64,000 nt of DNA from an uncultured Acidobacteriota bacterium (GCA_963770995.1 CAVYRS010000001.1:502815-566814); one strand, 5' to 3'. Shown: positions 21,025 through 63,385, counted from the first letter of the stretch. Notes: generated by a model not told the origin, from the sequence alone. Program-made: numbers and translations.

Positions 21025-21189
21025 ATGGACGACCTCGAGGCGGGTGTCCGCGTCGGGTCGTATGAGGTCGGCGCCCCCCTCGGTCGTGGCGGCATGGGCG
21101 ACGTCTATCGAGCCCTCGACACACGGCTGAATCGACCGGTCGCGATCGAATACGAACCGGTCCGACTGCGCTCCCCTGGTTTAGAGTGA
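21025..21189 (+). pseudogene. 5' remnant of a Ser/Thr kinase gene (first ~40 codons of the kinase domain only)
   Basis: Translation by hand: MDDLEAGVRVGSYEVGAPLGRGGMGDVYRALDTRLNRPVAIEYEPVRLRSPGLE*. The Gly-loop is present and the VAIK lysine is replaced (VAIE). The rest of the kinase is missing. It ends 7 nt before sixA. Confidence 0.5.
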
Positions 21190-31930: not shown

Positions 31931-33178
31931 TCAGGTCTCGAGCTCTCGGAGCCGGCGCTCGAGAAATCGCCGCTGCGGCTCCTGACGCGTCAGCTCCAGC
32001 GCACGCTGATACGACGCGCGCGCGTCCTCGGTCTTCCCCAGGCGGCGGCACAGATCGGCGCGGGCCGAGTGCGCCAGCTGGTAATCGGCGAGATCACCTC
32101 GGGCGAGGATCGCGTCGATCAGCGCGAGACCGGCTTGCGGACCATCGCGCATCGCGACGGCGGCGGCGCGGTTGAGATCGACCACCGGCGACGGATCGGC
32201 GCGCGCCAGGACGTCGTACAAGCCGACGATCTGCGCCCAGTCCGTCCGCTCCGCGCTCGGCGCTTCGGCGTGCAGCGCCGCAATCGCCGCCTGCAAGGTG
32301 TAGGGGCCGATCCGGCGCGACGCCAGCGCGCGCCCGACCAACGTGCTTCCCTCGGCAATCTGATCGTGGTTCCAGAGCGATCGGTCCTGTTCGTCCATCA
32401 GGATCAACTCGCCATCTACCGTCGTGCGGGCCGCGCGTCGCGACTCATGGAGGAGCATCAACGCGAGCAGCCCCACCGCTTCCGGCTCAGGAAGCAGCTC
32501 GACGAGCAGCCGTCCGAGACGAATCGCCTCCGCCGACATGTCGTGGCGTGTCAGAGACGCGCCGGAAGAGGCCGAGTACCCTTCGTTGAACACGAGATAA
32601 ACGACGCGGAGTACCGTGTCGAGGCGATCGGGGAGATCCGCGCGCGACGGCAGCTGATACGGAATGCGCGCGTCGCGGATCTTGGCCTTCGCCCGCACGA
32701 TGCGCTGCGCCACCGTGGGGGCGCCGGTCAAGAAGGCATGGGCGATCTCTTCCGTCGTGAGACCGCAGACTTCGCGAAGCGTGAGCGCCACCTGCGCGTC
32801 CGCCGGCAGCGCCGGATGGCAGCACGTGAAGATCAGCCGCAGCCGATCATCGTCCACACCGTCCTCGTCCGGATCGGGCGAGCCGGCGGCCGCCGCTTCG
32901 ATGCGTTCCGCCAACTCACCGAGCGACGCGTCGAACCGCGCGCGGCGGCGCATGCCGTCGATCGCTTTGAAGCGGCCGGTCGAGACGAGCCAGGCGCGTG
33001 GATTGGCGGGGACGCCGTCCGCGGCCCACTGGACCAGGGCGGCCATGAAGGCGTCGTGCAGCGCCTCCTCGGCGAGATCGAAATCGCCGAGAAGCCGGAT
33101 CAACGTGGCGAGGACGCGCCGCGATTCGGATCGGTAGACGGCATCCACCCGTTCGCGAACGCTGGCGTCCTCGGCCAT
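31931..33178 (-). CDS. ECF-type RNA polymerase sigma factor with extended C-terminal (TPR-like) domain, of the type paired with YciI-like proteins
   Basis: 415 aa. Region 2: LLGDFDLAEEALHDAFMAALVQW. Region 4: LTLREVCGLTTEEIAHAFLTGAPTVAQRIVRAK. It lies 20 nt downstream of a YciI-family gene. Confidence 0.85.
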   Translation of the reverse strand: MAEDASVRERVDAVYRSESRRVLATLIRLLGDFDLAEEALHDAFMAALVQWAADGVPANPRAWLVSTGRFKAIDGMRRRARFDASLGELAERIEAAAAGSPDPDEDGVDDDRLRLIFTCCHPALPADAQVALTLREVCGLTTEEIAHAFLTGAPTVAQRIVRAKAKIRDARIPYQLPSRADLPDRLDTVLRVVYLVFNEGYSASSGASLTRHDMSAEAIRLGRLLVELLPEPEAVGLLALMLLHESRRAARTTVDGELILMDEQDRSLWNHDQIAEGSTLVGRALASRRIGPYTLQAAIAALHAEAPSAERTDWAQIVGLYDVLARADPSPVVDLNRAAAVAMRDGPQAGLALIDAILARGDLADYQLAHSARADLCRRLGKTEDARASYQRALELTRQEPQRRFLERRLRELET

Positions 33179-33197
33179 CAGTGTTCCGCGGCTGTTG

Positions 33198-33557
33198 CTA
33201 CGTCGGCTGCTCGAAGACGACCACCGGGCGCACTTCGACGCTGCCCAGCCTCGCCGACGGAATCTTCGACGCCACCTGGATGGCGTCGTTCAGGTCCCGA
33301 GCCTCGATCATGTAGAAGCCGCCCAGCTGCTCCTTCGTCTCGGCGAACGGACCGTCGGTCGTCGAGACCTTGCCGCTGCGCACCCGCACAGTGGTGGCCG
33401 TCTGAACGGGCTGGAGCGCTTCGCCGGCGACATAGTGCCCGCTCTTGCGAATCCCCTCCGTAAAGGCGAAGTACTCGCCCATGAACGCGTCCGATTCAGT
33501 CTTGGACATCCCGCCGAGCTTCTTCTCTTCGTCGTAAATCAGGCACAGGTACTTCAT
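33198..33557 (-). CDS. YciI family protein
   Basis: MKYLCLIYDEE...DGPFAETKEQLGGFYMIEARDLNDAIQVASKIP. Confidence 0.9.
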   Translation of the reverse strand: MKYLCLIYDEEKKLGGMSKTESDAFMGEYFAFTEGIRKSGHYVAGEALQPVQTATTVRVRSGKVSTTDGPFAETKEQLGGFYMIEARDLNDAIQVASKIPSARLGSVEVRPVVVFEQPT

Positions 33558-33659
33558 GACTTCCTCCAAATCGTGTGTGAACTGCTTCGAACACGAGATA
33601 GTCGTTCGCAGGCGTTCGAATTCGACAATCTGCCGACCGTGGTATCGTTCGATTCACTC

Positions 33660-35291
33660 ATGAGTGCTCTGGCCAGCGGCAGAGCTGCCTTCCATCGAGG
33701 CACATGGGCCACCGCGTACGCGCGGCTGTCCGCGGCCGATGCGCAGACTCCACTCGACCCCGAGGATCTGGAGCGGCTGGCGACGGCTGCCGAGTTGATT
33801 GGCAAGGACTCCGAGAGCATCGCCGCGCGGACGCGCGCCCACGCGGGCTGTCTGGAGCGAGGCGACCGTCTCGGCGCCGCCGCCAGCGCCCTCCGGCTCG
33901 CGTTCGGCATGATCGCCGATCCGAACTCGCACGCACAAGCCATGGGATGGTTCGCGCGGGCGCACCGGCTGATCGACGAAGTCAATGTGCCGTGCGTCCA
34001 TCAGGGTTGGCTGGCCTGCGCCTCCGGTCTGCAGCAGGTGTTTGCTGGCGAGCTCGACGCGGCTCGAGCCATGTTCGAGGAAGCGGCTGCAGCCGGCTCC
34101 CGCTTCAACGATCGCGATCTGATCGCGTATGCGCGGCACGGAGAGGGGCGCGCGCTCGTCGGCATGAACCGCAAGTCCGAGGGACTCGCCCTGCTCGACG
34201 AGGTGATGATCGCCGTCACCGGCGGCGAAGTCGGCCCGGTGATTGCCGGCGTCGTCTACTGCAGCGTGATCAGCGCCTGTCACGACCTGTTCGATCTCCG
34301 CCGGGCGCACGAGTGGACCGCGGCCTTGCATCGGTGGTGTGCGGAGCATCCGGACATGGTGCCGTTTCGCGGCCCCTGCCTCGTGCGCCGATCGGAGGTC
34401 ATGCAGCTGCGCGGCGCGTGGCGCGATGCCATGGAGGAGGCTCGGCGCGCATGTGAGCACCTCAACGCTGAGGCCCGCCCGGTCGAACCCGGGGCGGCCC
34501 ACTACCAGCTCGCCGAGCTGCATCGCCTGCAAGGCGACTTCGAAGAGGCCGAGGACGCCTATCGGCTGGCGAGTCAGGCAGGACGCAAACCGCAACCCGG
34601 TCTGGCGCTGCTGCGGCTCGCACAGGGACAAATAGACGCCGCCGATGCGGCGATCCGCCTCGCGCTTCGCGAGACGCGCGCTCCCCGCGCGCGCGTGCAC
34701 GTGTTGGCGGCCGCCGTGGAGATCATGCTGGCGAAAGGTGACCGTGCCGCCGCACGCGCCGCGGCCGACGAGCTCTCGCAGAGTGCTGAACATCTGGAGG
34801 CTCCGTTCCCGCGTGCGGTCGCATCGCAGGCCGCCGGCGCGGTGGAAGTCTGCGACGAACACGCCGAGGCTGCGCTCGCCGCGCTCGACACTGCTCGCAC
34901 CATCTGGCAGGAGCTTGACGTGCCGTACGAGCTGGCGCGAGTCCGCATGCTGATCGGTCTCGCCTATCGGCACCTCGGCGACGAGGATGGCGCGCAACTC
35001 GAGTTCGATGCCGCGCTCGAAGCCTTCGAGCGGCTCGGCGCCGGACCGGATGTGAGGCGCGCCTCCGCGATCGCCGCGACGGCTGAGCCGCCTTCGGCGG
35101 CGGGCCTGACCGGCCGCGAGATCGAAGTGCTGCGGCTGATCGCCACCGGCGCCACCAACCGCGCAATCGCCGCACGCCTCGGCATCAGCGAAAAGACCGT
35201 CGCCCGGCATTTGAGCAACATCTTCACGAAGCTGGATTTGCCGTCGCGCTCGGCAGCCACCGCTTACGCCTACGAGCACAAGCTCGTGTAG
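33660..35291 (+). CDS. LuxR-family transcriptional regulator with large N-terminal helical/TPR sensor region
   Basis: ATG 33660. C-terminal HTH: LTGREIEVLRLIATGATNRAIAARLGISEKTVARHLSNIFTKLDL. The first 155 codons of the track ORF overlap the YciI gene on the opposite strand and are discarded. Confidence 0.85.
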   Translation: MSALASGRAAFHRGTWATAYARLSAADAQTPLDPEDLERLATAAELIGKDSESIAARTRAHAGCLERGDRLGAAASALRLAFGMIADPNSHAQAMGWFARAHRLIDEVNVPCVHQGWLACASGLQQVFAGELDAARAMFEEAAAAGSRFNDRDLIAYARHGEGRALVGMNRKSEGLALLDEVMIAVTGGEVGPVIAGVVYCSVISACHDLFDLRRAHEWTAALHRWCAEHPDMVPFRGPCLVRRSEVMQLRGAWRDAMEEARRACEHLNAEARPVEPGAAHYQLAELHRLQGDFEEAEDAYRLASQAGRKPQPGLALLRLAQGQIDAADAAIRLALRETRAPRARVHVLAAAVEIMLAKGDRAAARAAADELSQSAEHLEAPFPRAVASQAAGAVEVCDEHAEAALAALDTARTIWQELDVPYELARVRMLIGLAYRHLGDEDGAQLEFDAALEAFERLGAGPDVRRASAIAATAEPPSAAGLTGREIEVLRLIATGATNRAIAARLGISEKTVARHLSNIFTKLDLPSRSAATAYAYEHKLV

Positions 35292-35400
35292 CCGGCCTGC
35301 GAAGAATTACCCATTCGGATTTCCAGCACGTCTGCGCAATCCGCCCGATGCGGCGCGGCCGCGTTCTCCCTATTCTTCGAACAAGCACGGAGGAGAGAAC

Positions 35401-36519
35401 ATGGCCGGAACGAATACGACAGAACGCGTGAACACGCTCGTCATCGGCGGCGGTCAAGCCGGCCTGTCGGTCGGCTACCACCTCGCCCGACACGGCGTGC
35501 CGTTCTTGATTCTGGACGGCAGCGAGCGCGTCGGCGACGCATGGCGGCAGCGGTGGGATTCGCTCCACCTCTTCACGCCGGCCAAGCTCGCCGGCCTGGA
35601 CGGCATGCGTTTTCCTGCCCCACCAGACTCATTTCCGACGAAGGACGCGATGGCCGACTATCTCGAGTCGTACGCCCAGACGTTCGCGCTGCCGGTGCGC
35701 TCGGGCGTTCGCGTCGACCGGCTCTCGCGGCTCGGTGACGGTTTCGTGGCCGTGTCGGGCACGAGGCGCTACGAGGCCGATCAGGTGATCGTCGCGATGG
35801 CGAACTATCAGCGGCCGCGCGTGCCCGCGTTCGCCCGCGATCTCGACGCGGGTATCGTGCAGCTCCATTCCTTCGAGTACCGGCGCCCGTCGCAGTTGCA
35901 GACGGGTGACGCGCTCGTGGCCGGCGCGGGCAATTCGGGCGCCGAGATCGCCATCGAGCTCGTGCGCAGCCATGCGACGTGGCTGGCCGGCCCCGATACC
36001 GGCCATATCCCGTATCGCATCGACGGCCTCGCGGCGCGACTGGTGTTTACGCGGCTCGTGCTCCGGGTGGTGTTTCACCGCGTGCTGACGATCGGCACGC
36101 CGCTCGGGCGGAGGGTGCGGCCAACGGTGCTGCACGGCGCCGCACCGCTCATCCGGCTGAAGCCGAGAGACCTCGCTGCCGCGGGCGTCGCTCGCGTGCC
36201 TCGCGTCGCCGGGGTCAGGAACGGCTTGCCGCTGCTCGAGGATGGCCGCGTACTCGAGGTGTCCAATGTCATCTGGTGCACCGGCTACGATCCGGGATTC
36301 TCGTGGATCGATCTGCCGGTGTTCGATGCCGACGGCGATCCGCGGCATGTGGCCGGCGTCGTCGAGAGCGAACCGGGCCTGTACTTCGTCGGCCTCCACT
36401 TCCTGTACGCGTTCTCGTCGGAAATGATTCACGGCGTCGGGCGTGATGCCGCGCGGATCGCAGGTGTCGTCGCGTCTCGAGGCGCCGCCGCGAGGACGGC
36501 ACAGCGCAGCGCGGCGTAA
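35401..36519 (+). CDS. FAD/NAD(P)-binding flavin monooxygenase-like oxidoreductase
   Basis: GGAGGAG upstream. Two dinucleotide motifs: VIGGGQAGLSVG and VAGAGNSGAEIA. Confidence 0.85.
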   Translation: MAGTNTTERVNTLVIGGGQAGLSVGYHLARHGVPFLILDGSERVGDAWRQRWDSLHLFTPAKLAGLDGMRFPAPPDSFPTKDAMADYLESYAQTFALPVRSGVRVDRLSRLGDGFVAVSGTRRYEADQVIVAMANYQRPRVPAFARDLDAGIVQLHSFEYRRPSQLQTGDALVAGAGNSGAEIAIELVRSHATWLAGPDTGHIPYRIDGLAARLVFTRLVLRVVFHRVLTIGTPLGRRVRPTVLHGAAPLIRLKPRDLAAAGVARVPRVAGVRNGLPLLEDGRVLEVSNVIWCTGYDPGFSWIDLPVFDADGDPRHVAGVVESEPGLYFVGLHFLYAFSSEMIHGVGRDAARIAGVVASRGAAARTAQRSAA

Positions 36520-36545
36520 CGGAGCATCGGGATCGGAGGGCGGTC

Positions 36546-36995
36546 ATGCGCACACTATTTGATGATGCCTGCCGCATGGACGTTCTCGCTCGCCTCAGAC
36601 ACGTCCGACAGGATGTGCGACCGTTATGGGGTCGGATGACCGCGCCGGAAATGGTAGTGCACCTCGCAGACCAGATGCGGATGACGCTTGGCAATGCGCG
36701 CTGGACACGGATGCCACCTGCCCATTTGAGATGGCCGGGGATGAAACAGGCTGCCCTCTACTGGCTTCCATGGCCCAAAGGCGGCATCCAGGGTCCGCCC
36801 GAAGCGTTCGTGACGACGCCGACAGACTGGGATGCCGATATCGCGAGGCTGGAGGCGCTGGTCGTGCGCTTCGCCGAGCGTGGGCCGGGCGGCGTCTGGC
36901 CGCAGCATTCCCATTTCGGCCGGCTGAACGGCCGGCAGTGGGGCGTGTTTTGCTATCGTCATTTCGACCACCACCTGCGCCAGTTCGGAGCCTGA
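36546..36995 (+). CDS. DinB-superfamily / DUF1569-like protein
   Basis: 149 aa. C-terminal HSHFGRLNGRQWGVFCYRHFDHHLRQFG is typical of DUF1569. Confidence 0.75.
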   Translation: MRTLFDDACRMDVLARLRHVRQDVRPLWGRMTAPEMVVHLADQMRMTLGNARWTRMPPAHLRWPGMKQAALYWLPWPKGGIQGPPEAFVTTPTDWDADIARLEALVVRFAERGPGGVWPQHSHFGRLNGRQWGVFCYRHFDHHLRQFGA

Positions 36996-37076
36996 GTACC
37001 AAGCGCCGTGCCGCACAGTGTGCCGGTCATGATGAAGCGATCGCCTCCGTGGTCGCGGGTGCGATCGCACGGGCGT

Positions 37077-40037
37077 CTAGCGTCCGAACGACCACCGGAC
37101 GCCAATCTGGCCGACGCGCTGCTCGGGCTGCTGAAAATCCCCGGCATATGACGTGGGTTGCATGAAACTCGGATTCGGATTGCCAAGTCCGAGCAGCCGC
37201 TGCCTGTTGAACGCCCCAGGATTGTCGGCGTTCAACAGGTTGAACATCTCCGCGATCAGTTCGAGCCGCGATCCCCGTGGCAGCGCAAAGCGCTTCGAGG
37301 CGCGCAAGTTGAGCTGGCTGAACGATGCGCCGCGGCCGCAGTTGACGGTCGCGCACGCGCCGATCTCCCTGGCGGGACTGCCGACGCCGTCGAATGCATA
37401 CGCACGGGCGGGAAGATCGTTGTTGTTCAGATCGTTGTTCCGATCAACGCCCTCAATCGTGTTGACCGGCGGCGCCGAGCGGAAATAGAAAATCGGCGCC
37501 AGCTGCACGCCCCAGCGGATCGGCGCGATGACGCTAATCGACACACGGTGGCGCGCATCGGTGACGCCCGGACCGTACTCAGCCGCCGCAAATGGATCGG
37601 CGGCATCGAGGACGCTGTGGTTCCGGCCGCCGGTGATGGCGGTCTCATCGGCCGCCAATCCCAGGTAGCCTTTCGCGTTCGACAGCGTGTAGCTGGCGGC
37701 AACGTCGAGGCCCGCCGTTGTCCGACGCCGAATGCTGAACAGCAGCGCGTCGTACCGGCTCCATGCGGCACTCGTTGCGATGCGGAACAACGGGGCGGTG
37801 ATGCGAAGATCGGCGAATCGACGCGGGCCGCGGTTGGGCGCCGAATTCAGCGGCAGGCGCGTGCTGAGATCGCGTCCGTCGGCATGAATGAAGTCCGCCG
37901 CGAGCGCGGTAGACGGATCCAGCTGATGCGACCACCCCACTGACAGCTGGCGCGTGAAGGGCTGTTCGAGGAGCGGCGACAGCACCTCGTTGTTGAGTCC
38001 GAGCCCCGATGCCTGATTGAGCGAGGCGATCGCAGCGATCGGATCGCCGACGCGAAAGAACGTGCCGTCGGGTTTCCGCAGCCCGTTCGGATCGATCGCG
38101 TTGAAGCCTCCGGTATCGACTGGCCCTCTGGCATCGCCGGCCGCAATCAGGATATTGGCGTTCGTGAAGGCGGCGTCGGTGAACACGCCCCAGCCGCCGC
38201 GGACAACGTCGCGGCCGTCTCCGCGAACATCGAGCGCAAATCCGAGGCGAGGCTGGAGGTTGTCGATGTCCTCGCGCGGCGCCGCACCGAAATCCTCGAA
38301 CCCGATCACGCCGCGCAAGCGGCCCGACTGCGCAGCCTGCTGCAAGATGACGAAATTGGGATTGCGCGACTGGTCGATCTGGTAGCCAAGGGCGACGTCG
38401 TATCGCAGGCCGAGGTTGACGGTCAGGCGATCGGTCACGCGCCAGTCATCCTGAACGTACCCGCCGACATGGGTCAGCGGTGTATTCAACTCGGGGAATT
38501 CGCGTGGCGCCGTGGCGAGACTGGCCACGACCTGCGTGAGCGGGCCGGTGCGATCGTTCGTCAGATGAAAGTACGTGGTGAACCCTGACGCCTCTGTCAC
38601 CGCAGGGACACCGAGAACAGGCACATAGCCGAAACTTCCCCCAAACTTCAGGCCGTGCGCGACGCCGAATCTGCCGCCGCGATGCCAGGTGAGATCGTCG
38701 CGGATCTGGAGCTGACGCTGTCGCGTGAACTGCGGTGCGAACGGAGAACGCCCGACGGTCACGCCGTTGGGGAATATCTCGAGGGGCTGGTCGTTGGTCG
38801 TGATCGCGTTCTCGAACGTCGCAAACTGCACGACGAGCTCGTTGAACGCCGACGCCGCCATCACGCGGCTGTGGTTGACGTTGATCGAATGAAAGCGGTT
38901 GCGGCTATCGCCCCAGGCCTCCGCCGTTCGAGTCGGCGCCGCGCCTTCGGGCTGCCGGTTCGCGTCCCATCCGTAGCGGATGGCGAAACGATCGCGCAGG
39001 CCGAGGTTCACCGTGAGTTTGCCGGTCGCCAGGGTGTCGCGGTAGCGGACCGGAGAGACGCCGTCCCTCGCCGGAAACAACCCTTGCGTGTTGACGGCCT
39101 GGAATGTGTTCTGATGGACGCGTTCGGCGGCGCCGAAGAAATGCGCTCTGTTTTCGATGACGGGACCGCCCAGCGATCCGCCGAACTGCGACCGCCGGTA
39201 ATCCGGCTTCTCCACGTCGAGGATCGTCTCTGTCGCCGTCCGGCTATTGAGCGATTCGTGGCGGATCAGATCGAATGCGCTCCCCGCTACTTGGTTCGCA
39301 CCGCTCTTCGTGACGACGCTCAGCACGCCGCCGCTGGCCCGGCCGTGCTCGGCCCCGTAGCTCGCATTCGAGAAACGGAATTCTTCGATGGCGTCGAGCG
39401 GAAATTGCTGCAGCGGCCCGCCGACCGTATCGTCAACGTTGTCGGCGCCGTCGACGACGTACATCACGTTGCGGCCGTTGCCGCCGTTGACCTGCGGCAT
39501 GTACTGCGTGCTTTTCGTCGGGTCGCGATGAAATCCGAGGCCGACGCCCGGCAGCGTCGCGGCCAGATTCGCGAACTGCCGCCCGTTGAGCGGCAGCTCC
39601 GCGATCCGGCGCTGGTCGACGACGCCGCCGACTTCCGGCGAAGCCGGCTGCATGAGCGGACTGGACGCGGCGACGGCCACCGTCTCGGCCACCGCGGCAA
39701 CACGCAGCTGGAAATCGACGCGCACGATGGCCGCGACTTCGATCGCCATTCCGCGCTGCTCGACAGTCGCAAACCCGTTGAGCGCCGCTTGAATGTCGTA
39801 CATGCCAGGTGGTAGACCGGCAATTCGGTATGCGCCCTGACCGTCGCTGATGCCCTGCCGCGCGAAGCCGGTCGCCGGGTTCGCCACGGTGACGACGACA
39901 CCTGGGACGGCTAGCGCCTGTTGATCCACGGCCCGGCCTTCAATCGCCGCGCTCTGGGCGGACGCCGCACGGATGCCAGGGAGTAGCACGCCGACACAAA
40001 CGATCGCAGCGGCTCGAATGCGCACGCGGTAGTTCAT
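37077..40037 (-). CDS. TonB-dependent receptor-like outer-membrane barrel with N-terminal CarboxypepD_reg domain
   Basis: 986 aa with a signal peptide. IEGRAVDQQALAVPGVVVTVANPATGFARQGISDGQGAYRIAGLPPGMYDI, then a long beta-rich region. Its ATG overlaps the kinase stop (ATGA 40034-40037). Confidence 0.9.
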   Translation of the reverse strand: MNYRVRIRAAAIVCVGVLLPGIRAASAQSAAIEGRAVDQQALAVPGVVVTVANPATGFARQGISDGQGAYRIAGLPPGMYDIQAALNGFATVEQRGMAIEVAAIVRVDFQLRVAAVAETVAVAASSPLMQPASPEVGGVVDQRRIAELPLNGRQFANLAATLPGVGLGFHRDPTKSTQYMPQVNGGNGRNVMYVVDGADNVDDTVGGPLQQFPLDAIEEFRFSNASYGAEHGRASGGVLSVVTKSGANQVAGSAFDLIRHESLNSRTATETILDVEKPDYRRSQFGGSLGGPVIENRAHFFGAAERVHQNTFQAVNTQGLFPARDGVSPVRYRDTLATGKLTVNLGLRDRFAIRYGWDANRQPEGAAPTRTAEAWGDSRNRFHSINVNHSRVMAASAFNELVVQFATFENAITTNDQPLEIFPNGVTVGRSPFAPQFTRQRQLQIRDDLTWHRGGRFGVAHGLKFGGSFGYVPVLGVPAVTEASGFTTYFHLTNDRTGPLTQVVASLATAPREFPELNTPLTHVGGYVQDDWRVTDRLTVNLGLRYDVALGYQIDQSRNPNFVILQQAAQSGRLRGVIGFEDFGAAPREDIDNLQPRLGFALDVRGDGRDVVRGGWGVFTDAAFTNANILIAAGDARGPVDTGGFNAIDPNGLRKPDGTFFRVGDPIAAIASLNQASGLGLNNEVLSPLLEQPFTRQLSVGWSHQLDPSTALAADFIHADGRDLSTRLPLNSAPNRGPRRFADLRITAPLFRIATSAAWSRYDALLFSIRRRTTAGLDVAASYTLSNAKGYLGLAADETAITGGRNHSVLDAADPFAAAEYGPGVTDARHRVSISVIAPIRWGVQLAPIFYFRSAPPVNTIEGVDRNNDLNNNDLPARAYAFDGVGSPAREIGACATVNCGRGASFSQLNLRASKRFALPRGSRLELIAEMFNLLNADNPGAFNRQRLLGLGNPNPSFMQPTSYAGDFQQPEQRVGQIGVRWSFGR

Positions 40038-42760
40038 CTCAGGCCGTCAATCATATACAGGCTCGCGAGTCCTCTCGCGAACCCGTACACGTAGCTCTGG
40101 CCGTCAGCGGATATCAACACGCGGTTCGGAACGAGGCCCGCGGGATCCGCGAAGGCGATCTCGCGCCACACCGTGCGTGTCCGCGTCGCGAGATCGAACC
40201 GCAGGATTTGGATCGGTGTGCTCCGACTGTTTGAAAGCCATAAGGCTTTCCCGTCCACGCTCCAGCGCAGCGGGTTATCGCCTCGTGCGAGACCCTCGAG
40301 TGGATCCGGCTGCTCGCGGTCTGGATGGTACAGGAAGAATTGTCCAGCCGAATCGGTCGTCACGACTCTGGAATCCGGCGACACGACCACCGGAACCGTC
40401 AGCCGCACGCCCTCCGGCGTGATCGGGCGTGGGGATCCGGTGGTTGTCGACTGCACGTAGACCCGCGGCGGACGACCAGGCTCGGCCGCATTGAACACAA
40501 TCCGGGCATTGTCCGGCAGCCAGGCCGCGAACGTGTTGGTCAACTGCAGTCGGCCGAGATCGAGCGCCCGTGATTGACCGGGTCCGGTCGGCATGATGGT
40601 CGGAAAACTCTCATCCTGTTTGCGAACGAGCACCCATTGCCCGTCCGGCGAGAGCGCCATGCTCACGCCCTCCGTCAGGCGGATGGCGGGCGACCCATCG
40701 GTCTTCCGCAGAAACACGACTGGCGTTGGACCTGCGCCGACACCGCTCTCCTGGAACAACAGCGTCTTGCCGTCGCTCGACAAGTCCTTCGACGTTGACC
40801 AGTCCAGCCACGAGAGATCGCGCTCGCGACTCGAGCCGTCGGCCACACCAATCATCTGTGCTCGGGCGACCTCCGAGGCCGCCAACACGCGACCGTCGGG
40901 CGCGACATCCGCAATCCACAGCGATTCCGGGCTCCGCTGGACGACGCGCTCACGGCCGTCCCGGGTTACGGCGCGCAGCGAATAATCGAGGCCGACTTCC
41001 GAGGCACTGAACCAGACCTCATTGCCGCTCCAGGCCGCGCACCCACAGGCTGACGAATACTGCTGGGACAACCGCGTAACGGCGCCCGATCGATCCACGA
41101 CGGTCAGCCGACCACCGCCCGGCGGGTCGCGGTCGATGAACGCCACGAGACTGCCGTCGGGTGATAGGCGAACGCCGTCAACCGGCGCGCTCGTCGTGTA
41201 CAGCGTTTTCCCGATCGGATACTCAATCGTACGTTCTCGACCCTTTGCACGCAGCACGGCGAGGGAGGTGCCATCGGGCGCCCAGTCGGCCGCTACGACG
41301 TTGTCGACCAGTTCGCGTGGGGCTTCGCCGCCGAGCGGTACCTGCGCGAGCGTGCCCGATTTGGTCAGGATCGCCAGTTCCCCCGAACGCGAAACCGCCA
41401 ACAGCCTCGCGTCCGGCACGGGGATGGGAACGGACTGCCCTGTATCCAGCCGCATCGAGAAGGTCTGAGCCGGCTTGCCCTCCCACTGCGCCGTGTAAAG
41501 GATCGTCTGACCGTCAGGCGAGAACCTGGCGTTGTCGATGGTTCCGCGACGGAACGTGAGCTTCTTGAGCGTCGGAGACACGGTCGGTGCGAATCGGCGG
41601 CCCGCCATGTAGGTTCCTGTCATGCCAAGCGCCGCGAGAACACCGAGCAACGCCAGCCACGCCCCTGCGGGTCGCGTGCGACTGTGCGACTGCCCCTCCG
41701 ACGGCCTCAACACCCCGTCGCGAATCCAGCGCAACTGCAGCGCGGCGTCGTGCGCCGATTGCAGCCGCGCGTCGGGATCCTTCGCGAGACACGTGCGGAC
41801 GAGCACATCGAGCGCCGGCGGCGTGACCGGCTGAATCGTGGACAGCGGTGGCGGCTCGTCGCGCAGAATCGACGCGATCAGATTCGAGCGGCTGTCGCCC
41901 GTAAACGCTCTTCGGCCGGTGATCATCTCGTAGACGATGGCGCCGAATGCGAAGAGATCCGTGCGGGCGTCCGCATCCTTGCCTTCGAGCTGCTCGGGCG
42001 CCATGTACTGAAACGTGCCGACGATGGTTCCTTCGCCCGTGAGCGTGTGCGGCGTTGTCGGCAGAGCCGTGGCCGAGGCAAACGTACCGGTGCGAGCGCC
42101 GAACTTCGCCAGGCCGAAATCCAGCAGCTTCGCGCCGTCCTTCGTCAGCATGACGTTGCCGGGTTTCAAGTCGCGATGCGTGATGCTGGCACGATGCGCG
42201 CTGTGCAGCGCCTCGGCGATCTCGATGGCGTACTGCAGCGCCCGGTCGAGCGGCAGCGGGCCCTTTTTCAACCGCTGCTCCAGGGTCTCGCCTTCGAGGT
42301 GCTCCATGACCAGGAACTCGACGCCCTGATCGTGGCCGATGTCGTACAGCACGCAGATGTGCGGATGCCTGAGCGCCGCGATCGCCTGCGCCTCGCGCTC
42401 GAAGCGCTGCCGCAGTTCGGGCTCGTTCGCGAATGCGGAGGGCAGCACTTTGATCGCGACGGACCGATTCAATCGCGTATCGCGCGCCTTGTACACCTCA
42501 CCCATGCCGCCGGCGCCGAGCGCCGCTTCGATCCGATAGGGGCCGAGCGCCGTGCCGGGCGCGACGCTTGGCGCAGGCCGCGCGAACGGATCGCCGCCTT
42601 CGCGCGCGCGTGCGTCGCCCGACAGCAGCGTCTCCACTTCGCCGCGCAGCGCGGCGTCGTCGCTGCACACATCTGCGAGAAACGCCGCGCGTGCGCCCGA
42701 CTCGCGCGCCAGCGCCGCGTGGAAGATCTCGGTGATCTTCTTCCAGCGTTCAGGATCCAT
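40034..42760 (-). CDS. Ser/Thr protein kinase with one TM helix and a periplasmic PD40/TolB-like beta-propeller
   Basis: ATG 42760 (MDPERWKKITEIFHAAL). Kinase motifs: GAGGMGEVYKARD, VAIKVL, HRDLKPGNVM, LLDFGLAK, GTFQYMAPEQ. TM: WLALLGVLAALGMTGTYMA. More than 8 xSPDG/xAPDG repeats. It overlaps the sigma gene by 11 nt. Confidence 0.9.
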   Translation of the reverse strand: MDPERWKKITEIFHAALARESGARAAFLADVCSDDAALRGEVETLLSGDARAREGGDPFARPAPSVAPGTALGPYRIEAALGAGGMGEVYKARDTRLNRSVAIKVLPSAFANEPELRQRFEREAQAIAALRHPHICVLYDIGHDQGVEFLVMEHLEGETLEQRLKKGPLPLDRALQYAIEIAEALHSAHRASITHRDLKPGNVMLTKDGAKLLDFGLAKFGARTGTFASATALPTTPHTLTGEGTIVGTFQYMAPEQLEGKDADARTDLFAFGAIVYEMITGRRAFTGDSRSNLIASILRDEPPPLSTIQPVTPPALDVLVRTCLAKDPDARLQSAHDAALQLRWIRDGVLRPSEGQSHSRTRPAGAWLALLGVLAALGMTGTYMAGRRFAPTVSPTLKKLTFRRGTIDNARFSPDGQTILYTAQWEGKPAQTFSMRLDTGQSVPIPVPDARLLAVSRSGELAILTKSGTLAQVPLGGEAPRELVDNVVAADWAPDGTSLAVLRAKGRERTIEYPIGKTLYTTSAPVDGVRLSPDGSLVAFIDRDPPGGGRLTVVDRSGAVTRLSQQYSSACGCAAWSGNEVWFSASEVGLDYSLRAVTRDGRERVVQRSPESLWIADVAPDGRVLAASEVARAQMIGVADGSSRERDLSWLDWSTSKDLSSDGKTLLFQESGVGAGPTPVVFLRKTDGSPAIRLTEGVSMALSPDGQWVLVRKQDESFPTIMPTGPGQSRALDLGRLQLTNTFAAWLPDNARIVFNAAEPGRPPRVYVQSTTTGSPRPITPEGVRLTVPVVVSPDSRVVTTDSAGQFFLYHPDREQPDPLEGLARGDNPLRWSVDGKALWLSNSRSTPIQILRFDLATRTRTVWREIAFADPAGLVPNRVLISADGQSYVYGFARGLASLYMIDGLR

Positions 42761-43322
42761 GGGTGAGCTGCGCGTGCAGCCAGGCCCGGGCCGCCCGCCA
42801 CTCGCGATCGATGGTTGCCGGCGAGACCTCGAGGAAGCGGGCTGTCTCTTCGAGCGAGAGCCCGCCGAAGTATCGCAATTCGACGACGCGGCTCTTGCGT
42901 GCATCGAACGCCGCCAGCCGATCGAGCAGCGTGTCGAGCATCAAGACGTCGAATCCGGGATCGGGCGCAGCGGCGCCGAGATCGGTCAGGGACACGCGCA
43001 CCCACCGTCCCGAGCGTTTGTCCATCTTCCGCCGGCGGGCGTGATCGACGAGGATGCGCCGCATCATCTGCGACGCCACGCCGTAGAACTGCGCGCGGTT
43101 CTGCCAGCTGGCGTGCTTCTGACCGGCCAGCCGAAGGTAGGCCTCGTGAACGACTGCGGTCGCCTGCAGCGTGTGATTCGGCCGTTCCTGTCGCAGGTAC
43201 GCCGCAGCGCGCCGCCGCAGCTGCTTGTAGACCAGGGGCACGAGACGGTCTCCAGCCTCCCGATCCCCCCGGCCCCACGCACGGAGCAGCCCGGTGACGT
43301 CAGGGCTCGATTCGCTGTTCAA
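42750..43322 (-). CDS. ECF sigma factor of the TIGR02999 (kinase-associated, ECF43-like) type
   Basis: TTG start. VTGLLRAWGRGDREAGDRLVPLVYKQLRRRAAAYLRQERPNHTLQATAVVHEAYLRL; region 4 VVELRYFGGLSLEETARFLEVSPATIDREW. Confidence 0.85.
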   Translation of the reverse strand: MNSESSPDVTGLLRAWGRGDREAGDRLVPLVYKQLRRRAAAYLRQERPNHTLQATAVVHEAYLRLAGQKHASWQNRAQFYGVASQMMRRILVDHARRRKMDKRSGRWVRVSLTDLGAAAPDPGFDVLMLDTLLDRLAAFDARKSRVVELRYFGGLSLEETARFLEVSPATIDREWRAARAWLHAQLTHGS

Positions 43323-43433
43323 GGTATTGCATCAGATCCTCTGGCCTGGCCCGTTCAAAGTCAACAGCCCGAGTGAGTTCCGGGGCATGACGAGGTTTCG
43401 CCGAGGTTCTCGCGTCACGGTCCGGAGGCCGAT

Positions 43434-43979
43434 ATGGCTACGGAGCGCGACGGCCACAATCGAGCGACATCCCGCGCAGCCGCGGCGCTGTGCCTCATCG
43501 GACTCATGCTGGCCCCGGCTCGGGCAGCTGCCGCAGGCTTCGACCACGTTCGCTCGGAGGACGCGTACGTGCGCGCGCTGCTGGACAGCGGCTACGCGCG
43601 CTCCGCGACCTTCAAGGCGCTCGTCGACGAACTCGACTCGCGCCCGGGCATCGTCTACATCGTCCAGGCCGTCGCGCTCTCGCGTGGCATGGATGGTGCG
43701 CTGCTCCACGCCGTCGCGGGCTCGCCGGAGATCCCGATGTTCCGCGTGTTGCTCAAAACGAACCTGGGGCGGGATTACGCCGTTGCGGTTCTCGCGCACG
43801 AACTGCAGCACGTCCTCGAGGTGCTGCGCGCCGGACGGCCAATGGACAGCGCCGCGATGGCAGAGTTCTTCGCGGCGCTCGACGATCAGGCGGCGGATTC
43901 GAAATTCGAAACCGAGGATGCACGCGCCATCACGTCCCGCGTGCTGGACGAGCTGCGGGTGGGCCGCCGGCGGCGATGA
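43434..43979 (+). CDS. exported hypothetical protein with HExxH motif (possible small zinc metallopeptidase)
   Basis: 181 aa with a signal peptide (ALCLIGLMLAPARAAAA). AVLAHELQHVLE is the only recognisable motif. Confidence 0.55.
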   Translation: MATERDGHNRATSRAAAALCLIGLMLAPARAAAAGFDHVRSEDAYVRALLDSGYARSATFKALVDELDSRPGIVYIVQAVALSRGMDGALLHAVAGSPEIPMFRVLLKTNLGRDYAVAVLAHELQHVLEVLRAGRPMDSAAMAEFFAALDDQAADSKFETEDARAITSRVLDELRVGRRRR

Positions 43980-44196
43980 CGCTCTGGTCGAACTCTTTCA
44001 CCTCGGGAAATTCATGCGTTGGAGCAGCGCCTGAAAGCGCGGATCCGATCGCGCAAAGTCCTGGGGTGGACCCTGTTTCATGTGCACCAATCCGGCGCGG
44101 GGCGATCGTGGCAGGAGGCGCATTTCGTGCGGTAGAGCGTCTCCCCGTCAGGGTACCCCCTGAGTAGCCGGGAATCCCGCAGCGACCATCAGAACA

Positions 44197-55200: not shown

Positions 55201-55417
55201 GCCGGAGGTTTTCAATCCTGTACGCCCCGTTCGAGTCGGTGGTGACCGACCGCACCCTTTCGATGAGCGCGTCGCTAGCGGCTTCCACGGTCACGCCCGG
55301 AAGCACGGCGCCGGTGGTGTCCTTGACCACGCCGGCGAACGCGCTCTGTGCGCGGGCGGTCGTCGGCCACGCCAGCAGACACGCTAGCGCAAATACCGAC
55401 AGCAGTAGTCTTCTCAT
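52295..55417 (-). CDS. TonB-dependent receptor-like outer-membrane barrel with CarboxypepD_reg domain
   Basis: 1040 aa. Signal peptide, then GVVKDTTGAVLPGVTVEAASDALIERVRSVTTDSNGAYRIENLRPGIYSLTF. C-terminal ...LRLAAVVNW. GGAGGA upstream. Confidence 0.9.
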   Translation of the reverse strand: MRRLLLSVFALACLLAWPTTARAQSAFAGVVKDTTGAVLPGVTVEAASDALIERVRSVTTDSNGAYRIENLRPGIYSLTFSLPGFSSVKKDAIELPSNFTSTINGDLKVGTVEETVTVSGESPVVDVQTNIKAQVLSRDVLDAVPSAHTIQSVGQLVVGVSLTAPDVGGSQAMQQTYFTVHGLGAAQTTVTIDGMIMNGLQGDGAIQSYLNEGANQEMVYQTGGGTVDSPTGGVKINLVPKEGGNRFSGSLFEGYESSKMQSNNLTPKLESLGVRTVDKIGTYNDTNFTQGGPLKKDKMWFFASFRLFTVNKPIANTLVSDGTPAGIQRCQAALAGRGGALCPQGVDPQHQYSYLGRLTWQISPRNKLSGYYDRVLKDRGAAMAPGDDQTTSSVLWNSPLYTTNSVKWTSTVSSRLLIEGGYSGNIERYNNLYQPGIEKPYGSPEWFSNARHVDAGAGLTWKASALQNNVYPDRYNAQASATYVTGTHSVKVGFQDSWGPFNRASYANGDLYQNYVQVNGVETPQTVTVFATPARWRDRLNASLGIFAQDIWTLNRLTLTYGGRWEYVNEQVDGQPAQSGRFANIPAYGDKQMPIWKSFSPRTGVVYDLQGNGKTALKFGFNKFMAAATTTLAELYDPGAGNIINATLPWTDKNLDDVAQGARGCAFATDPTCEINFASLPSNFGTVSLAEPDPGLTRPYVLQGNTGITRELFQGVSVSFDWFHNVSKGFMERNNVNRPGTLNADGTVTNASYRPVTVFSPIDGTPITVFDVASAAVGTLAAKNIDTNDPGLKQTYNSFEMGFNARLPRGARLSGGFGTERTIAYTCTAAASNPNFLIRIGGANYCDQENSGIPWRTGIKLVGMVPLPWYGLVFAGAYQGLPGYVLGTSALTAGGAGAPNFANISGLASQLTVTAATRYTACPGNSASQGCVVGALIAPGALSTLTVPLDAPNTLLTPRLNQLDLSVSKRITVGRFRIDPKVDVFNALNSSDFFTARSTTYTLTGVGATPTAVNGSSGSYLLPGSIIQGRLLRLAAVVNW

Positions 55418-55531
55418 GCTGTTTCCTCCTCGGAGTCCACGAGAACCAAAGTTTGGTCCGAGGAAAAACCTACACCGAAGGGTGGCGAGAATCTACGGGG
55501 AATTTGACAAACGGAGACGTCTGGCCCGCCG

Positions 55532-63207: not shown

Positions 63208-63385
63208 TACCGCGTCCTCCTTGGAGTCACGAATGATGGAATTGCAAGCTACTCGATGACATCAAGCGACGAATGAAGACGAAGGCTTACGAAATGTGAC
63301 AAACACTACGCTTACGGTTTCCTACGGTCAAGGGAATTTGCCCGCGACGGACACACGGCTTGTCACCGACCGGAAATTTGGATTC

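What the first reader, a model, noticed from the sequence alone, without database searches (positions are those of the whole stretch)
37077..43322. ECF sigma, Ser/Thr kinase (periplasmic PD40 propeller) and TonB-dependent receptor fused into one overlapping operon: a kinase-based analogue of FecI-FecR-FecA signalling?
The TIGR02999/ECF43-like sigma gene overlaps the kinase gene by 11 nt (42750-42760). The kinase stop overlaps the receptor ATG (ATGA at 40034-40037).

ECF43-type sigma factors are known to be controlled by partner Ser/Thr kinases through phosphorylation rather than by anti-sigma factors. Here the kinase has a TM helix and a large periplasmic TolB-like propeller, and it is stoichiometrically coupled to an outer-membrane TBDR-like barrel. 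This is the topology of cell-surface signalling (receptor, inner-membrane transducer, sigma), with a kinase in place of FecR. The receptor has a CarboxypepD_reg N-domain instead of the usual STN signalling domain.
Basis: partly seen in the sequence, partly recalled or inferred. Interest (0 to 1): 0.65.

Follow-up and report, generated by a model that had tools for sequence, protein, structure and literature searches.

The report
Kinase-controlled sigma factor operon with transporter
A soil acidobacterium encodes, in one tightly packed operon, a sigma factor switched on by phosphorylation, its membrane Ser/Thr kinase with a TolB-like periplasmic sensor, and a TonB-dependent outer-membrane transporter; the kinase-transporter pair is conserved even where the sigma factor is replaced by another regulator, which suggests a previously undescribed way of linking an outer-membrane transporter to gene control.

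Summary
Three minus-strand genes overlap as described. They are an ECF sigma (TIGR02999), a Hanks kinase with one TM helix and a TolB-like propeller, and an Oar-subclass TonB-dependent transporter (TBDT) with no STN domain.

The sigma shows ECF43 hallmarks: QATA replaces the acidic DAED motif, and Thr55 sits at the phospho-acceptor position. The kinase has the N-terminal helical extension also seen in PknS.

The triplet is not widespread. Transporter paralogues at 52% identity or less never have a kinase or sigma immediately upstream (0 of about 144 testable loci). A monophyletic transporter clade at 56% identity or more always follows a tightly coupled propeller kinase (11/11).

Within that clade:
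- One subclade carries the sigma.
- The sister subclade lacks it, and four of five loci instead carry a convergent FHA plus winged-helix regulator.

So kinase plus transporter is the conserved core, and the output is interchangeable.

It encodes a small secreted HExxH protein (43434-43979) and always lies head-to-head with the regulator gene.

It remains untested whether the transporter feeds the kinase (FecA-like or SusC/HTCS-like) or is merely co-expressed cargo. Verdict: a new variant of known kinds, of moderate to high interest.

The parts
43434..43979 (+). Small putatively secreted protein (181 aa). It has a signal-peptide-like N-terminus and an invariant HELQHVxE motif, and belongs to an uncharacterised family. 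It is transcribed divergently from the sigma gene.
   Evidence: No Pfam or NCBIfam hit. It is 44-72% identical to the gene head-to-head with sigma in L001, L002 and L005, and to the gene head-to-head with the FHA-wHTH regulator in L166 and L167. The family holds 129 database clusters, all named 'hypothetical'.
43323..43433 (.). Shared intergenic control region between the HExxH gene and the sigma operon. Candidate sigma-A-like promoter towards sigma: TTGACT (43364-43359), 17 nt, GAGGAT (43341-43336). Conserved block GACCGTGACGCGAG lies at 43422-43409.
   Evidence: It is nearly invariant in the window, L001, L002 and L087, while the flanking coding DNA diverges. The blocks GACCGTGACGCGAG, GTTGACTTT and AGGAT are also kept in L005. 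The promoter assignment is an inference. The consensus scan found nothing above threshold.
42750..43322 (-). ECF sigma factor of the kinase-activated type (TIGR02999, ECF43-like), 190 aa.
   Evidence: PF07638 1.7e-54; TIGR02999 218.5 bits against a cut-off of 126. Orthologues in L001, L002 and L087 are 90-97% identical.
43158..43160 (-). Codon of Thr55, within Q53-A54-T55-A56. This is the position of the acidic DAED motif of sigma region 2.2 and the predicted phospho-acceptor.
   Evidence: Translation. Alignment to E. coli RpoE places QATA on DVPD. The EcfP STTA second Thr and EcfK T51 are the phosphorylated residues (PMC8999054, PMC13147305). LQATA is conserved in L001, L002, L087 and L005.
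42750..42760 (-). 11-nt overlap of the sigma stop (TGA) with the kinase start (ATG).
   Evidence: Sequence. The identical overlap occurs in L001, L002, the P0126 contig and L005.
40034..42760 (-). Receptor Ser/Thr kinase (Hanks type), 908 aa.
   Evidence: Pkinase 4e-47. Catalytic motifs VAIK, HRDLKPGN, DFG and APE are visible in the translation. The AlphaFold model has mean pLDDT 88. Foldseek top hits are PknB and PknA.
42551..42760 (-). N-terminal 70-aa extension of the kinase, a three-helix bundle. It is found only in sigma-linked kinases.
   Evidence: Helices 3-17, 21-31 and 36-54 have pLDDT 81-93. No Pfam hit. It is present in P0001-P0010, L087 and L005, and absent from sigma-less kinases, whose kinase domain starts at residue 12. 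PknS has an analogous 83-aa helical extension.
41594..41668 (-). Single transmembrane helix of the kinase (about residues 365-389).
   Evidence: Single hydropathy maximum. Model helix at 373-389.
40037..41575 (-). Periplasmic all-beta PD40/TolB-like propeller region of the kinase (residues 396-908).
   Evidence: PD40 1.2e-11 and TIGR02800 TolB propeller 7.5e-13. The nearest solved sequences are TolB at 1e-6. The model has about 44 strands at pLDDT above 90. This region is only 47-48% identical in orthologues whose kinase domain is 85-91% identical.
40034..40037 (-). ATGA: the kinase stop overlaps the transporter start.
   Evidence: The junction is overlapping or separated by at most 5 nt in L001, L002, the P0126 and P0127 contigs, L165, L166, L168 and L169.
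37077..40037 (-). Oar-subclass TonB-dependent-transporter-like outer-membrane protein, 986 aa. Layout: signal peptide, CarboxypepD_reg N-terminal extension (39702-39944), TonB-box-like ETVAVAA (39666-39686), divergent plug-like region (39288-39632), 22-strand barrel (37080-39287).
   Evidence: PF13620 3.6e-16, PF25183 7e-73, PF00593 2.6e-07, no STN. In the model, the barrel and N-terminal extension have pLDDT 75-90 and residues 114-245 are below 50. All top Foldseek hits are TBDTs: YddB 7.9e-27, FusA, Cir, FpvA, SusC. A profile gives a weak match to the plug region of YncD and PqqU, E 4e-4.

Best explanation
This is a four-gene envelope-signalling module.

**Cytoplasmic half.** This is an ECF43-type system. 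The sigma is intrinsically inactive because region 2.2 has lost its acidic DAED patch (QATA). It is switched on when the adjacent Hanks kinase phosphorylates Thr55. The kinase probably docks the sigma through its N-terminal three-helix extension.

**Sensory half.** This is the conserved pair of the kinase's periplasmic TolB-like propeller and an Oar-subclass TonB-dependent transporter, made from overlapping genes. The most likely reading is that the transporter supplies the input. Substrate captured or imported by the transporter is detected by the propeller, either as free periplasmic ligand or through contact with the transporter's periplasmic N-terminal, TonB-box or plug region. This activates the kinase.

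**Output.** Activated sigma then transcribes from the conserved shared intergenic region, most probably the divergent HExxH gene and its own operon.

**Sister lineage.** There the same kinase-transporter pair appears to signal through an FHA-wHTH (EmbR-like) regulator instead of a sigma.

**Shown:** gene anatomy, domain identities, the ECF43 sequence hallmarks, and the conservation pattern.

**Inferred:** phosphorylation of Thr55, the direction transporter to kinase, and the targets.
For: 1. **ECF43 hallmarks.** TIGR02999 scores above its cut-off. QATA with Thr55 replaces DAED and is conserved in the orthologues. The mechanism is established for EcfP/PknT and EcfK/PknS.
2. **Kinase N-terminal extension.** The three-helix extension is present in 5/5 sigma-linked kinases examined in their loci and absent from the sigma-less kinases. 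PknS has the same feature.
3. **Kinase-transporter linkage.**
   - Every transporter of the clade at 56% identity or more that could be examined has a PD40 kinase directly upstream, overlapping or within a few nt except in frameshift-fragmented L167 (135-nt gap). These are the window, L001, L002, L085, L087, the P0126 and P0127 contigs, L165, L166, L167, L168 and L169.
   - None of the 156 paralogue loci at 52% identity or less (about 144 testable) has a kinase or sigma immediately upstream on the same strand.
   - The 21 linked-clade transporters form an exclusive clade in an NJ tree.
4. **Output swap.** Subclade I has the sigma. In subclade II, L166-L169 have a convergent orthologous FHA plus Trans_reg_C gene (61-69% identical) and no sigma. 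The kinase-transporter pair therefore persists independently of the regulator.
5. **HExxH gene.** It always lies head-to-head with the regulator gene, and the intergenic region is nearly invariant.
6. **Module integrity.** The flanking genes are rearranged between the window and L001/L002, while the module stays intact.
Against: - No STN domain and no FecR-like protein are present, so there is no known structural basis for TBDT-to-transducer signalling.
- The N-terminal extension and periplasmic turns of the transporter carry no clade-specific conserved residues.
- The propeller evolves much faster (47%) than the transporter (72%), which argues against a tightly co-evolving interface.
- The propellers of transporter-linked kinases are not clearly closer to one another than to the bulk of stand-alone PD40 kinases.
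- L005 has a closely related sigma-kinase-HExxH set without any transporter.
- L165 has kinase and transporter but no regulator nearby.
- The plug domain is only weakly supported.
- The sample of contexts is small (12 loci), all from uncultured relatives.
- No expression or biochemical data exist.
Confidence: 0.5

Rival explanations
1. Co-expressed cargo. The propeller kinase senses some periplasmic or envelope signal on its own. The transporter is simply a product of the regulated operon, an uptake or export device switched on by the pathway, and has no role in sensing.
For: - Thousands of stand-alone kinases with the same PD40 architecture exist without a transporter.
- A close sigma-kinase-HExxH relative lacks the transporter (L005).
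- The transporter has no signalling (STN) domain.
- It shows no clade-specific residues on its periplasmic N-terminal extension.
- Autoregulated ECF operons commonly carry effector genes (general knowledge).
Against: - The kinase-transporter pair keeps overlapping or abutting genes through a change of regulator type and in L165 without any regulator.
- A transporter translationally coupled to a low-abundance signalling kinase is unusual for a bulk nutrient importer (inference).
- The linked transporters form a dedicated, exclusive clade.
Confidence: 0.28
2. Export module of the Oar type. As M. xanthus Oar exports the protease PopC, this Oar-subclass transporter would export the small HExxH protein encoded next door. 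The kinase and sigma would control or monitor that secretion.
For: - The transporter has the Oar architecture: CarboxypepD_reg N-terminal extension, TonB box, barrel and no STN.
- A small signal-peptide-bearing HExxH protein is a conserved neighbour in both subclades.
- The top fold matches include the protein-translocating TBDTs YddB and FusA.
Against: - The HExxH gene also occurs with sigma and kinase but without a transporter (L005).
- L165 has the transporter without an HExxH gene.
- L168 and L169 carry an unrelated HExxH family.
- Protease activity of the HExxH protein is unproven. It has no family hit, and its best PDB match, to the HtpX active-site helix, has E 0.47.
- The fold ranking among TBDTs is not discriminating (TM 0.41-0.53).
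Confidence: 0.1
3. Neighbourhood by descent only. The gene order reflects recent common ancestry of a few related genomes and has no functional meaning beyond the known sigma-kinase pair.
For: - The window, L001 and L002 share wider synteny: GerE/TPR regulator, flavin monooxygenase, DUF6596 sigma and hydrolases.
- The clade is small and absent from the 79 loci returned by the scan of GTDB species-representative genomes.
Against: - The pair is kept at 56-59% transporter identity and 43-48% kinase identity in loci with entirely different flanks (L165-L169, P0126 contig).
- The start/stop overlaps are preserved.
- The flanking blocks are rearranged around an intact module.
- The regulator was exchanged while the pair was kept.
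Confidence: 0.08

Closest known systems
EcfK/PknS (Xanthomonas citri) and EcfP/PknT (Vibrio parahaemolyticus): ECF43 sigma factors activated by a cognate Hanks-type kinase
   Same: - The ECF sigma gene lies next to a single-pass receptor Ser/Thr kinase.
- Sigma region 2.2 lacks DAED and carries Thr at the phosphorylated position (QATA here, STTA in EcfP, consensus QTTA).
- Ser and Thr residues are present in the sigma2-sigma4 linker (S104, S111, T113).
- The kinase has an N-terminal helical extension of about 70-83 aa before the kinase domain.
- No anti-sigma gene is present.
   Different: - The sensor domain is a TolB-like propeller, whereas PknS has TPR repeats.
- The pair is translationally coupled to a TonB-dependent transporter.
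- It sits head-to-head with a small HExxH gene.
- No such linkage is mentioned in the papers read, and a full-text search for TonB-dependent + Hanks-type + ECF found nothing.
FecI-FecR-FecA type cell-surface signalling (TBDT transducer, anti-sigma, ECF sigma)
   Same: There are three tiers encoded together: an outer-membrane TBDT, a single-pass inner-membrane protein with a periplasmic domain, and an ECF sigma.
   Different: - The transporter has no STN signalling domain.
- There is no FecR-like anti-sigma. The sigma would be activated by phosphorylation, not released by proteolysis.
- The sigma belongs to a different ECF group.
- Signal flow from the transporter is not demonstrated.
Myxococcus xanthus Oar (Oar subclass of TBDTs)
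   Same: The architecture matches: signal peptide, CarboxypepD_reg N-terminal extension, TonB box (ExVxV), plug region, 22-strand barrel and no STN.
   Different: - No direct sequence comparison with Oar was made.
- Oar is not reported as kinase-linked.
- Oar's role is export of PopC.
- Here the Pfam Plug model is not matched.
Bacteroidota SusC-like transporters with hybrid two-component sensors (HTCS)
   Same: (From general knowledge.) The TBDT carries a CarboxypepD_reg-type N-terminal extension. It works with an inner-membrane sensor whose periplasmic beta-propeller domain binds the imported ligand and controls transcription.
   Different: - The sensor is a Hanks kinase, not a histidine kinase/response regulator fusion.
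- No SusD-like lipoprotein gene is adjacent.
- The propeller family differs (PD40/TolB here, Reg_prop in HTCS).
PknH-EmbR (Mycobacterium tuberculosis): Hanks kinase signalling to an FHA-containing winged-helix regulator
   Same: This applies to the sister subclade only (L166-L169). A receptor Ser/Thr kinase is encoded beside a regulator that combines Trans_reg_C and FHA domains.
   Different: - The regulators here are short (215-249 aa) and lack a BTAD domain.
- The kinase is coupled to a TBDT.
- No such regulator flanks the module in the window; only weak FHA-domain matches occur elsewhere, at about 6183-6431 and 7382-7693.

Membership tests
ECF43-type (kinase-activated) ECF sigma factors | ECF architecture (sigma2 + sigma4 only) and a match to the TIGR02999 / PF07638 subfamily | tested here: met
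   PF07638 covers residues 8-187 at 1.7e-54. TIGR02999 scores 218.5 bits against a cut-off of 126.15.
ECF43-type (kinase-activated) ECF sigma factors | Acidic DAED motif of region 2.2 replaced by uncharged residues, with Thr at the third position as phospho-acceptor | tested here: met
   Q53-A54-T55-A56 aligns with DVPD of RpoE. It is conserved in L001, L002, L087 and L005. The motif definition comes from PMC8999054 and PMC13147305.
ECF43-type (kinase-activated) ECF sigma factors | Hanks-type kinase gene adjacent; no anti-sigma gene | tested here: met
   The kinase gene overlaps the sigma stop by 11 nt. The neighbours show no anti-sigma domains.
ECF43-type (kinase-activated) ECF sigma factors | Assignment by the ECF classification HMMs (ECF Hub) | not testable with these tools
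   That library is not available here.
ECF43-type (kinase-activated) ECF sigma factors | Sigma inactive until phosphorylated by the partner kinase | not testable with these tools
   This needs a biochemical or reporter assay.
Hanks-type receptor kinases partnering ECF43 sigmas (PknS/PknT-like) | Complete catalytic kinase domain, one TM helix and an extracytoplasmic sensor domain | tested here: met
   Pkinase 4e-47. The VAIK, HRDLKPGN, DFG and APE motifs are present. TM helix at about residues 365-389. Foldseek matches PknB and PknA with target-normalised TM 0.82-0.91.
Hanks-type receptor kinases partnering ECF43 sigmas (PknS/PknT-like) | Helical N-terminal extension before the kinase domain | tested here: met
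   Three helices within residues 3-54 at pLDDT 81-93. PknS has an 83-aa extension predicted as 3-4 helices. Sequence homology between the two extensions was not tested.
TonB-dependent transporters, Oar subclass | 22-strand outer-membrane beta-barrel | tested here: met
   The model shows 22 long strands with alternating long loops and short turns. Foldseek gives E 7.9e-27 to 1e-16 against solved TBDTs only.
TonB-dependent transporters, Oar subclass | CarboxypepD_reg (PF13620) N-terminal extension and no STN domain | tested here: met
   PF13620 covers residues 32-112 at 3.6e-16. No PF07660 hit. The subclass definition is in PMC6434023.
TonB-dependent transporters, Oar subclass | Plug domain (PF07715) filling the barrel | tested here: inconclusive
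   There is no PF07715 hit even at E up to 10 on the isolated region, and pLDDT is below 50 for residues 114-245. Against that, the family profile matches the plug region of YncD, PqqU and PirA at E 4e-4 to 2.5e-3. Several homologues carry weak or faint PF07715 hits. The region is the most conserved part of the protein.
TonB-dependent transporters, Oar subclass | TonB box between the N-terminal extension and the plug | tested here: inconclusive
   The motif A-E118-T-V-A-V-A-A follows the N-terminal extension. E118 is invariant in A1 and the consensus is VAExVTVTGESPL. This rests on a motif match by eye only, and TonB binding was not tested.
FecA/FecR/FecI-type cell-surface signalling | STN signalling domain on the transporter and a FecR-like anti-sigma factor | tested here: not met
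   Neither domain was found. The inner-membrane component is a kinase.
SusC/SusD-type transporters | Adjacent SusD-like lipoprotein gene | tested here: not met
   The gene downstream of the transporter is a convergent DinB-like DUF1569 gene.

The most novel reading that the evidence does not exclude
This would be a third mode of transporter-coupled trans-envelope signalling. An Oar-type TonB-dependent transporter reports substrate occupancy or import to the TolB-like periplasmic propeller of a eukaryote-like Ser/Thr kinase. That sensory pair is a portable cassette plugged into interchangeable cytoplasmic outputs: phosphorylation of an ECF43 sigma in one lineage and an FHA-winged-helix regulator in its sister lineage.
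Probability: 0.3. Interest if true: 0.8.

Novelty: new variant of a known kind. Interest (0 to 1): 0.6.

Why it matters
TonB-dependent transporters are known to talk to gene expression through FecR-type anti-sigma factors. In Bacteroidota they do so indirectly, through propeller-bearing two-component sensors.

ECF43 sigma factors are known to be activated by Ser/Thr kinases, but what those kinases sense is unknown for every studied case.

A kinase whose sensor domain is genetically locked to a dedicated transporter would give a concrete candidate input for an ECF43 pathway. It would also show that TBDT-linked signalling has evolved with Hanks kinases.

The natural swap of output (sigma versus FHA regulator) around a constant kinase-transporter pair is a clean example of modular rewiring. 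It offers a built-in comparative test.

The weakness is that the system is confined to a small clade of uncultured soil Acidobacteriota, so it would have to be studied by heterologous reconstitution.

Tried and rejected
- **Consensus promoter and terminator scan, 36400-44100.** It found no promoter and terminator-like hits below the shuffle expectation. No ECF-type -35/-10 pair with proper spacing could be assigned by eye. An apparent AACCTC direct repeat is not conserved in L001 and was dropped.
- **Clade-specific residues of kinase-linked versus unlinked transporters.** There are 20 positions, mostly conservative changes in the plug-like region and strands 3-10. None lies in the N-terminal extension or periplasmic turns. 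This does not discriminate between the models.
- **Domain-wise identity of kinases.** The kinase domain of the window kinase is closest to sigma-linked kinases (70% to L005, against 47-48% to the sigma-less L165 and L168). The propeller identities (44% to transporter-linked sigma-less kinases, 38-45% to others) do not define a transporter-linked propeller clade.
- **Foldseek of the full kinase model.** It returned only kinase-domain matches, so the propeller's structural neighbours were not obtained. Sequence search gave TolB instead.
- **phmmer of the sigma against PDB.** No hit.
- **Family scans.** Pfam on the kinase N-terminal extension and on the plug region gave nothing meaningful. NCBIfam and a PDB profile search on the HExxH protein likewise gave nothing meaningful; the best PDB matches had E 0.045 and 0.47.
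- **Literature searches.** Searches for a described kinase/TBDT/ECF combination found nothing.
- **Contig-length matching.** Equal 'longest contig' lengths suggest further co-located sets: contig 13531 with P0003, P0125 and P0255; 12661 with P0010 and P0281; 5566 with P0008 and P0301; 7407 with P0132 and P0308. This is inference only and is not counted as evidence.

Full report
**Observation**

The window is about 66% G+C throughout. On the minus strand there are three consecutive ORFs: 42750-43322 (190 aa, TTG start), 40034-42904 and 37077-40037 (986 aa).

- The middle gene is best started at ATG 42760 (MDPERW...). Full-length homologues P0002-P0010 align over 100% of that 908-aa protein.
- The same start, overlapping the sigma stop by 11 nt (...THGS* / MDP...), recurs in L001, L002, the P0126 contig and L005.
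- The raw sequence shows ACC CAT GGA TCC TGA overlapping ATG GAT CCT GAA.
- The kinase stop and transporter start form ATGA at 40034-40037.
- All three ORFs have the third-position G+C bias expected of real genes (0.79-0.82).
- The unit is bounded by opposite-strand genes: a DinB-like DUF1569 gene at 36546-36995 and an unannotated gene at 43434-43979.

**Identity of the three proteins**

*Sigma.*
- PF07638 scores 1.7e-54. TIGR02999 scores 218.5 bits against a cut-off of 126.15.
- The stretch H50-T-L-Q-A-T-A-V-V-H-E60 places Q53-A54-T55-A56 where ordinary ECF sigmas carry the acidic DAED patch (DVPD in E. coli RpoE).
- The literature defines ECF43 by exactly this loss. It identifies the Thr at the third position as the residue phosphorylated by the partner kinase: STTA in EcfP, consensus QTTA, T51 in EcfK (PMC8999054, PMC13147305).
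- LQATA is kept in the orthologues of L001, L002 and L087 and in the more distant L005 sigma.
- The sigma2-sigma4 linker also carries S104, S111 and T113. In EcfK a second activating phosphosite lies in this region.

*Kinase.*
- The Pkinase domain covers residues 75-342 with all catalytic motifs.
- There is one hydrophobic helix at about residues 365-389, followed by a 510-residue all-beta region with PD40 and TolB-propeller matches. Its nearest solved sequence relatives are TolB at E 1e-6.
- The AlphaFold model is confident, with mean pLDDT 88. It shows a three-helix N-terminal extension (residues 3-54), the kinase fold (Foldseek: PknB and PknA), a TM helix and about 44 beta strands.
- PknS, the kinase of the ECF43 sigma EcfK, likewise has an 83-aa N-terminal extension predicted as three to four helices.

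*Outer-membrane protein.*
- It has a signal peptide, CarboxypepD_reg at residues 32-112, PF25183 at 7e-73, a weak PF00593 hit and no STN.
- In the model the N-terminal domain and a 22-strand barrel are reasonably confident (pLDDT 75-90), but residues 114-245 are not.
- All leading Foldseek matches are TonB-dependent transporters: YddB 7.9e-27, FusA, Cir, FpvA, YncD and SusC.
- After the N-terminal domain comes A-E118-T-V-A-V-A-A, which resembles a TonB box. It is followed by the most conserved part of the family (PLNGRQFANLA...).
- Pfam's Plug model does not match this protein. A profile of the family matches the plug region of YncD and PqqU only weakly, at E 4e-4.

**How far the triplet is conserved**

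The kinase architecture is very common: at least 8,000 database clusters score E ≤ 1e-20 (the tool's candidate cap). Three relatives at 45-49% identity were examined. Two stand alone (L003, L004). One (L005) has the sigma and the 11-nt overlap but no transporter.

The transporter also belongs to a large family, with hundreds of paralogues at 45-52% identity, mostly labelled Vicinamibacterales. I fetched 79 such loci from GTDB species representatives and 77 from metagenomes. I then searched them with the window's sigma, kinase domain and propeller.
- None has a kinase or sigma immediately upstream on the same strand.
- About 144 of the 156 loci have enough upstream sequence to be testable.

By contrast, every transporter at 56% identity or more whose context could be read follows a PD40 kinase, with the genes overlapping or at most 5 nt apart; the one exception is frameshift-fragmented L167, where the gap is 135 nt.
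- These are L001, L002, L085 (partial), L087, the P0126 contig, the P0127 contig (upstream gene cut), L165, L166, L167 (kinase broken by frameshifts), L168 and L169.

In an NJ tree of 110 family members, these 21 proteins form an exclusive clade with two subclades. The linkage is therefore real and specific, but it is narrow. It is not a general acidobacterial arrangement.

**The output is interchangeable**

- Subclade I contains the window (P0121-P0129). It has the sigma upstream wherever the contig reaches that far: the window, L001, L002, L087 and the P0126 contig.
- Subclade II (P0130-P0142) has no sigma. Its kinases lack the N-terminal extension, with the kinase domain starting at residue 12.
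- In four of five subclade II loci (L166-L169), a convergent gene directly after the transporter encodes an orthologous protein (61-69% identical) that combines Trans_reg_C (winged helix) and FHA domains. FHA domains bind phosphothreonine, so this is the logic of PknH-EmbR.
- L165 has the kinase-transporter pair with neither regulator.

The constant element is thus kinase plus transporter. The N-terminal extension of the kinase tracks the presence of the sigma: 5/5 examined loci with it, and none without it. That fits a sigma-docking role (inference).

**A fourth component**

The gene divergent from the sigma (43434-43979, 181 aa) has no family assignment. It has a signal-peptide-like N-terminus and an invariant HELQHVxE motif.
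- Homologues at 44-72% identity lie head-to-head with the sigma in L001, L002 and L005. They also lie head-to-head with the FHA regulator in L166 and L167.
- L168 and L169 carry an unrelated HELGH protein in the same position.
- The family is small (129 clusters), and every member that carries a source name is called 'hypothetical'.
- The 110-nt intergenic region shared with the sigma operon is almost invariant among the window, L001, L002 and L087, although the adjacent coding DNA diverges.
- Three of its blocks survive in L005. They include a possible TTGACT-N17-GAGGAT promoter towards the sigma gene.

This makes the HExxH gene the most plausible regulated target, besides the operon itself. 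That is inference only.

**Mechanism**

The cytoplasmic steps follow established ECF43 biology: kinase autophosphorylation, then phosphorylation of Thr55, which restores the negative charge needed for binding the RNA polymerase beta-prime subunit.

The periplasmic steps are open. I favour the transporter as input, at roughly 0.5. Three observations support this:
- The pair is kept through a regulator swap.
- The genes are translationally coupled.
- The transporters form a dedicated clade.

Within that reading, two variants cannot be separated:
- a FecA-like physical relay to the propeller;
- SusC/HTCS-like sensing of the imported ligand by the propeller.

Several observations weaken the physical-relay variant:
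- There is no STN domain.
- No clade-specific residues lie on the transporter's periplasmic N-terminal extension.
- The propeller diverges quickly: 47% identity, against 72% for the transporter and 85-91% for the kinase domain.

The main rival is that the transporter is co-expressed cargo (about 0.28). An Oar-like export role for the HExxH protein is possible but weakly supported (about 0.1).

**Comparison with known systems and novelty**

- The sigma-kinase pair passes every sequence-level test for ECF43 that I could run.
- The transporter passes the tests for the barrel and N-terminal extension of the Oar subclass. The plug and TonB box remain inconclusive.
- The system fails the defining features of FecIRA-type signalling: there is no STN domain and no FecR.
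- The papers read on ECF43 do not mention a transporter partner. Full-text searches combining TonB-dependent, Hanks-type and ECF returned nothing.

I therefore rate it a new variant of known kinds.

Noticed in passing
window 43434-43979 (+): Uncharacterised small protein with a signal-peptide-like N-terminus and an invariant HELQHVxE motif. Its gene is always head-to-head with the regulator gene of the module, whether that is the sigma or the FHA-wHTH. The family has 129 clusters, all 'hypothetical', with no Pfam or NCBIfam model.
   Followed up: partly
L166 4981-5628, L167 8848-9498, L168 6694-7443, L169 4876-5550 (all minus strand in locus coordinates): The sister clade of the module has no sigma. 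Instead it has a convergent, orthologous Trans_reg_C + FHA regulator (215-249 aa) right after the transporter. This looks like an EmbR-like output for the same kinase-transporter pair.
   Followed up: partly
window 43323-43433: The intergenic region is nearly invariant across four loci and partly conserved in L005. The conserved blocks are GACCGTGACGCGAG, AACCTCGTCATGC, GGAAC, GTTGACTTTGAACG and CCAGAGGATCTG. No convincing ECF-type promoter could be assigned.
   Followed up: partly
L005 5138-8502: This locus holds a closely related sigma (72-78% identical), a PD40 kinase with the same 11-nt overlap, and a divergent HExxH gene, but no transporter downstream. The sigma and the kinase N-terminus are broken by frameshifts, probably long-read assembly errors.
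   Followed up: partly
window 40037-41575 versus 41711-42550: There is strong rate heterogeneity within the kinase. Among orthologues the kinase domain is 85-91% identical and the sigma 90-97%, but the periplasmic propeller is only 47-48% identical. The coupled transporter is 72% identical.
   Followed up: partly
window 31931-36995: This block holds a DUF6596/TPR ECF sigma (ECF41-like, 31931-33178 minus), a TPR-LuxR regulator (33195-35291), a flavin monooxygenase (35401-36519) and a DinB-like gene (36546-36995). In L001 and L002 the LuxR and monooxygenase genes lie on the other side of the module, so the flanks were rearranged around an intact module.
   Followed up: no
window 4882-5664, 9485-10280, 21052-21159; 6183-6431, 7382-7693: tblastn detects further Hanks-kinase-like stretches and two FHA-domain-like stretches elsewhere in the window. 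This suggests a genome rich in Ser/Thr phospho-signalling.
   Followed up: no
window 60256-63261 (-) and 52295-55492 (-): Two more large ORFs have distant similarity (25% identity) to the transporter. They are probably additional TBDT-like outer-membrane proteins that are not linked to kinases.
   Followed up: no
window 43330-43332: An ATG just after the GAGGA motif opens a 10-codon reading frame that overlaps the sigma TTG start in another frame. In L001 the corresponding GTG is in frame with the sigma. In L002 and L087 there is no such start. The true start and leader of the sigma mRNA are therefore uncertain.
   Followed up: no
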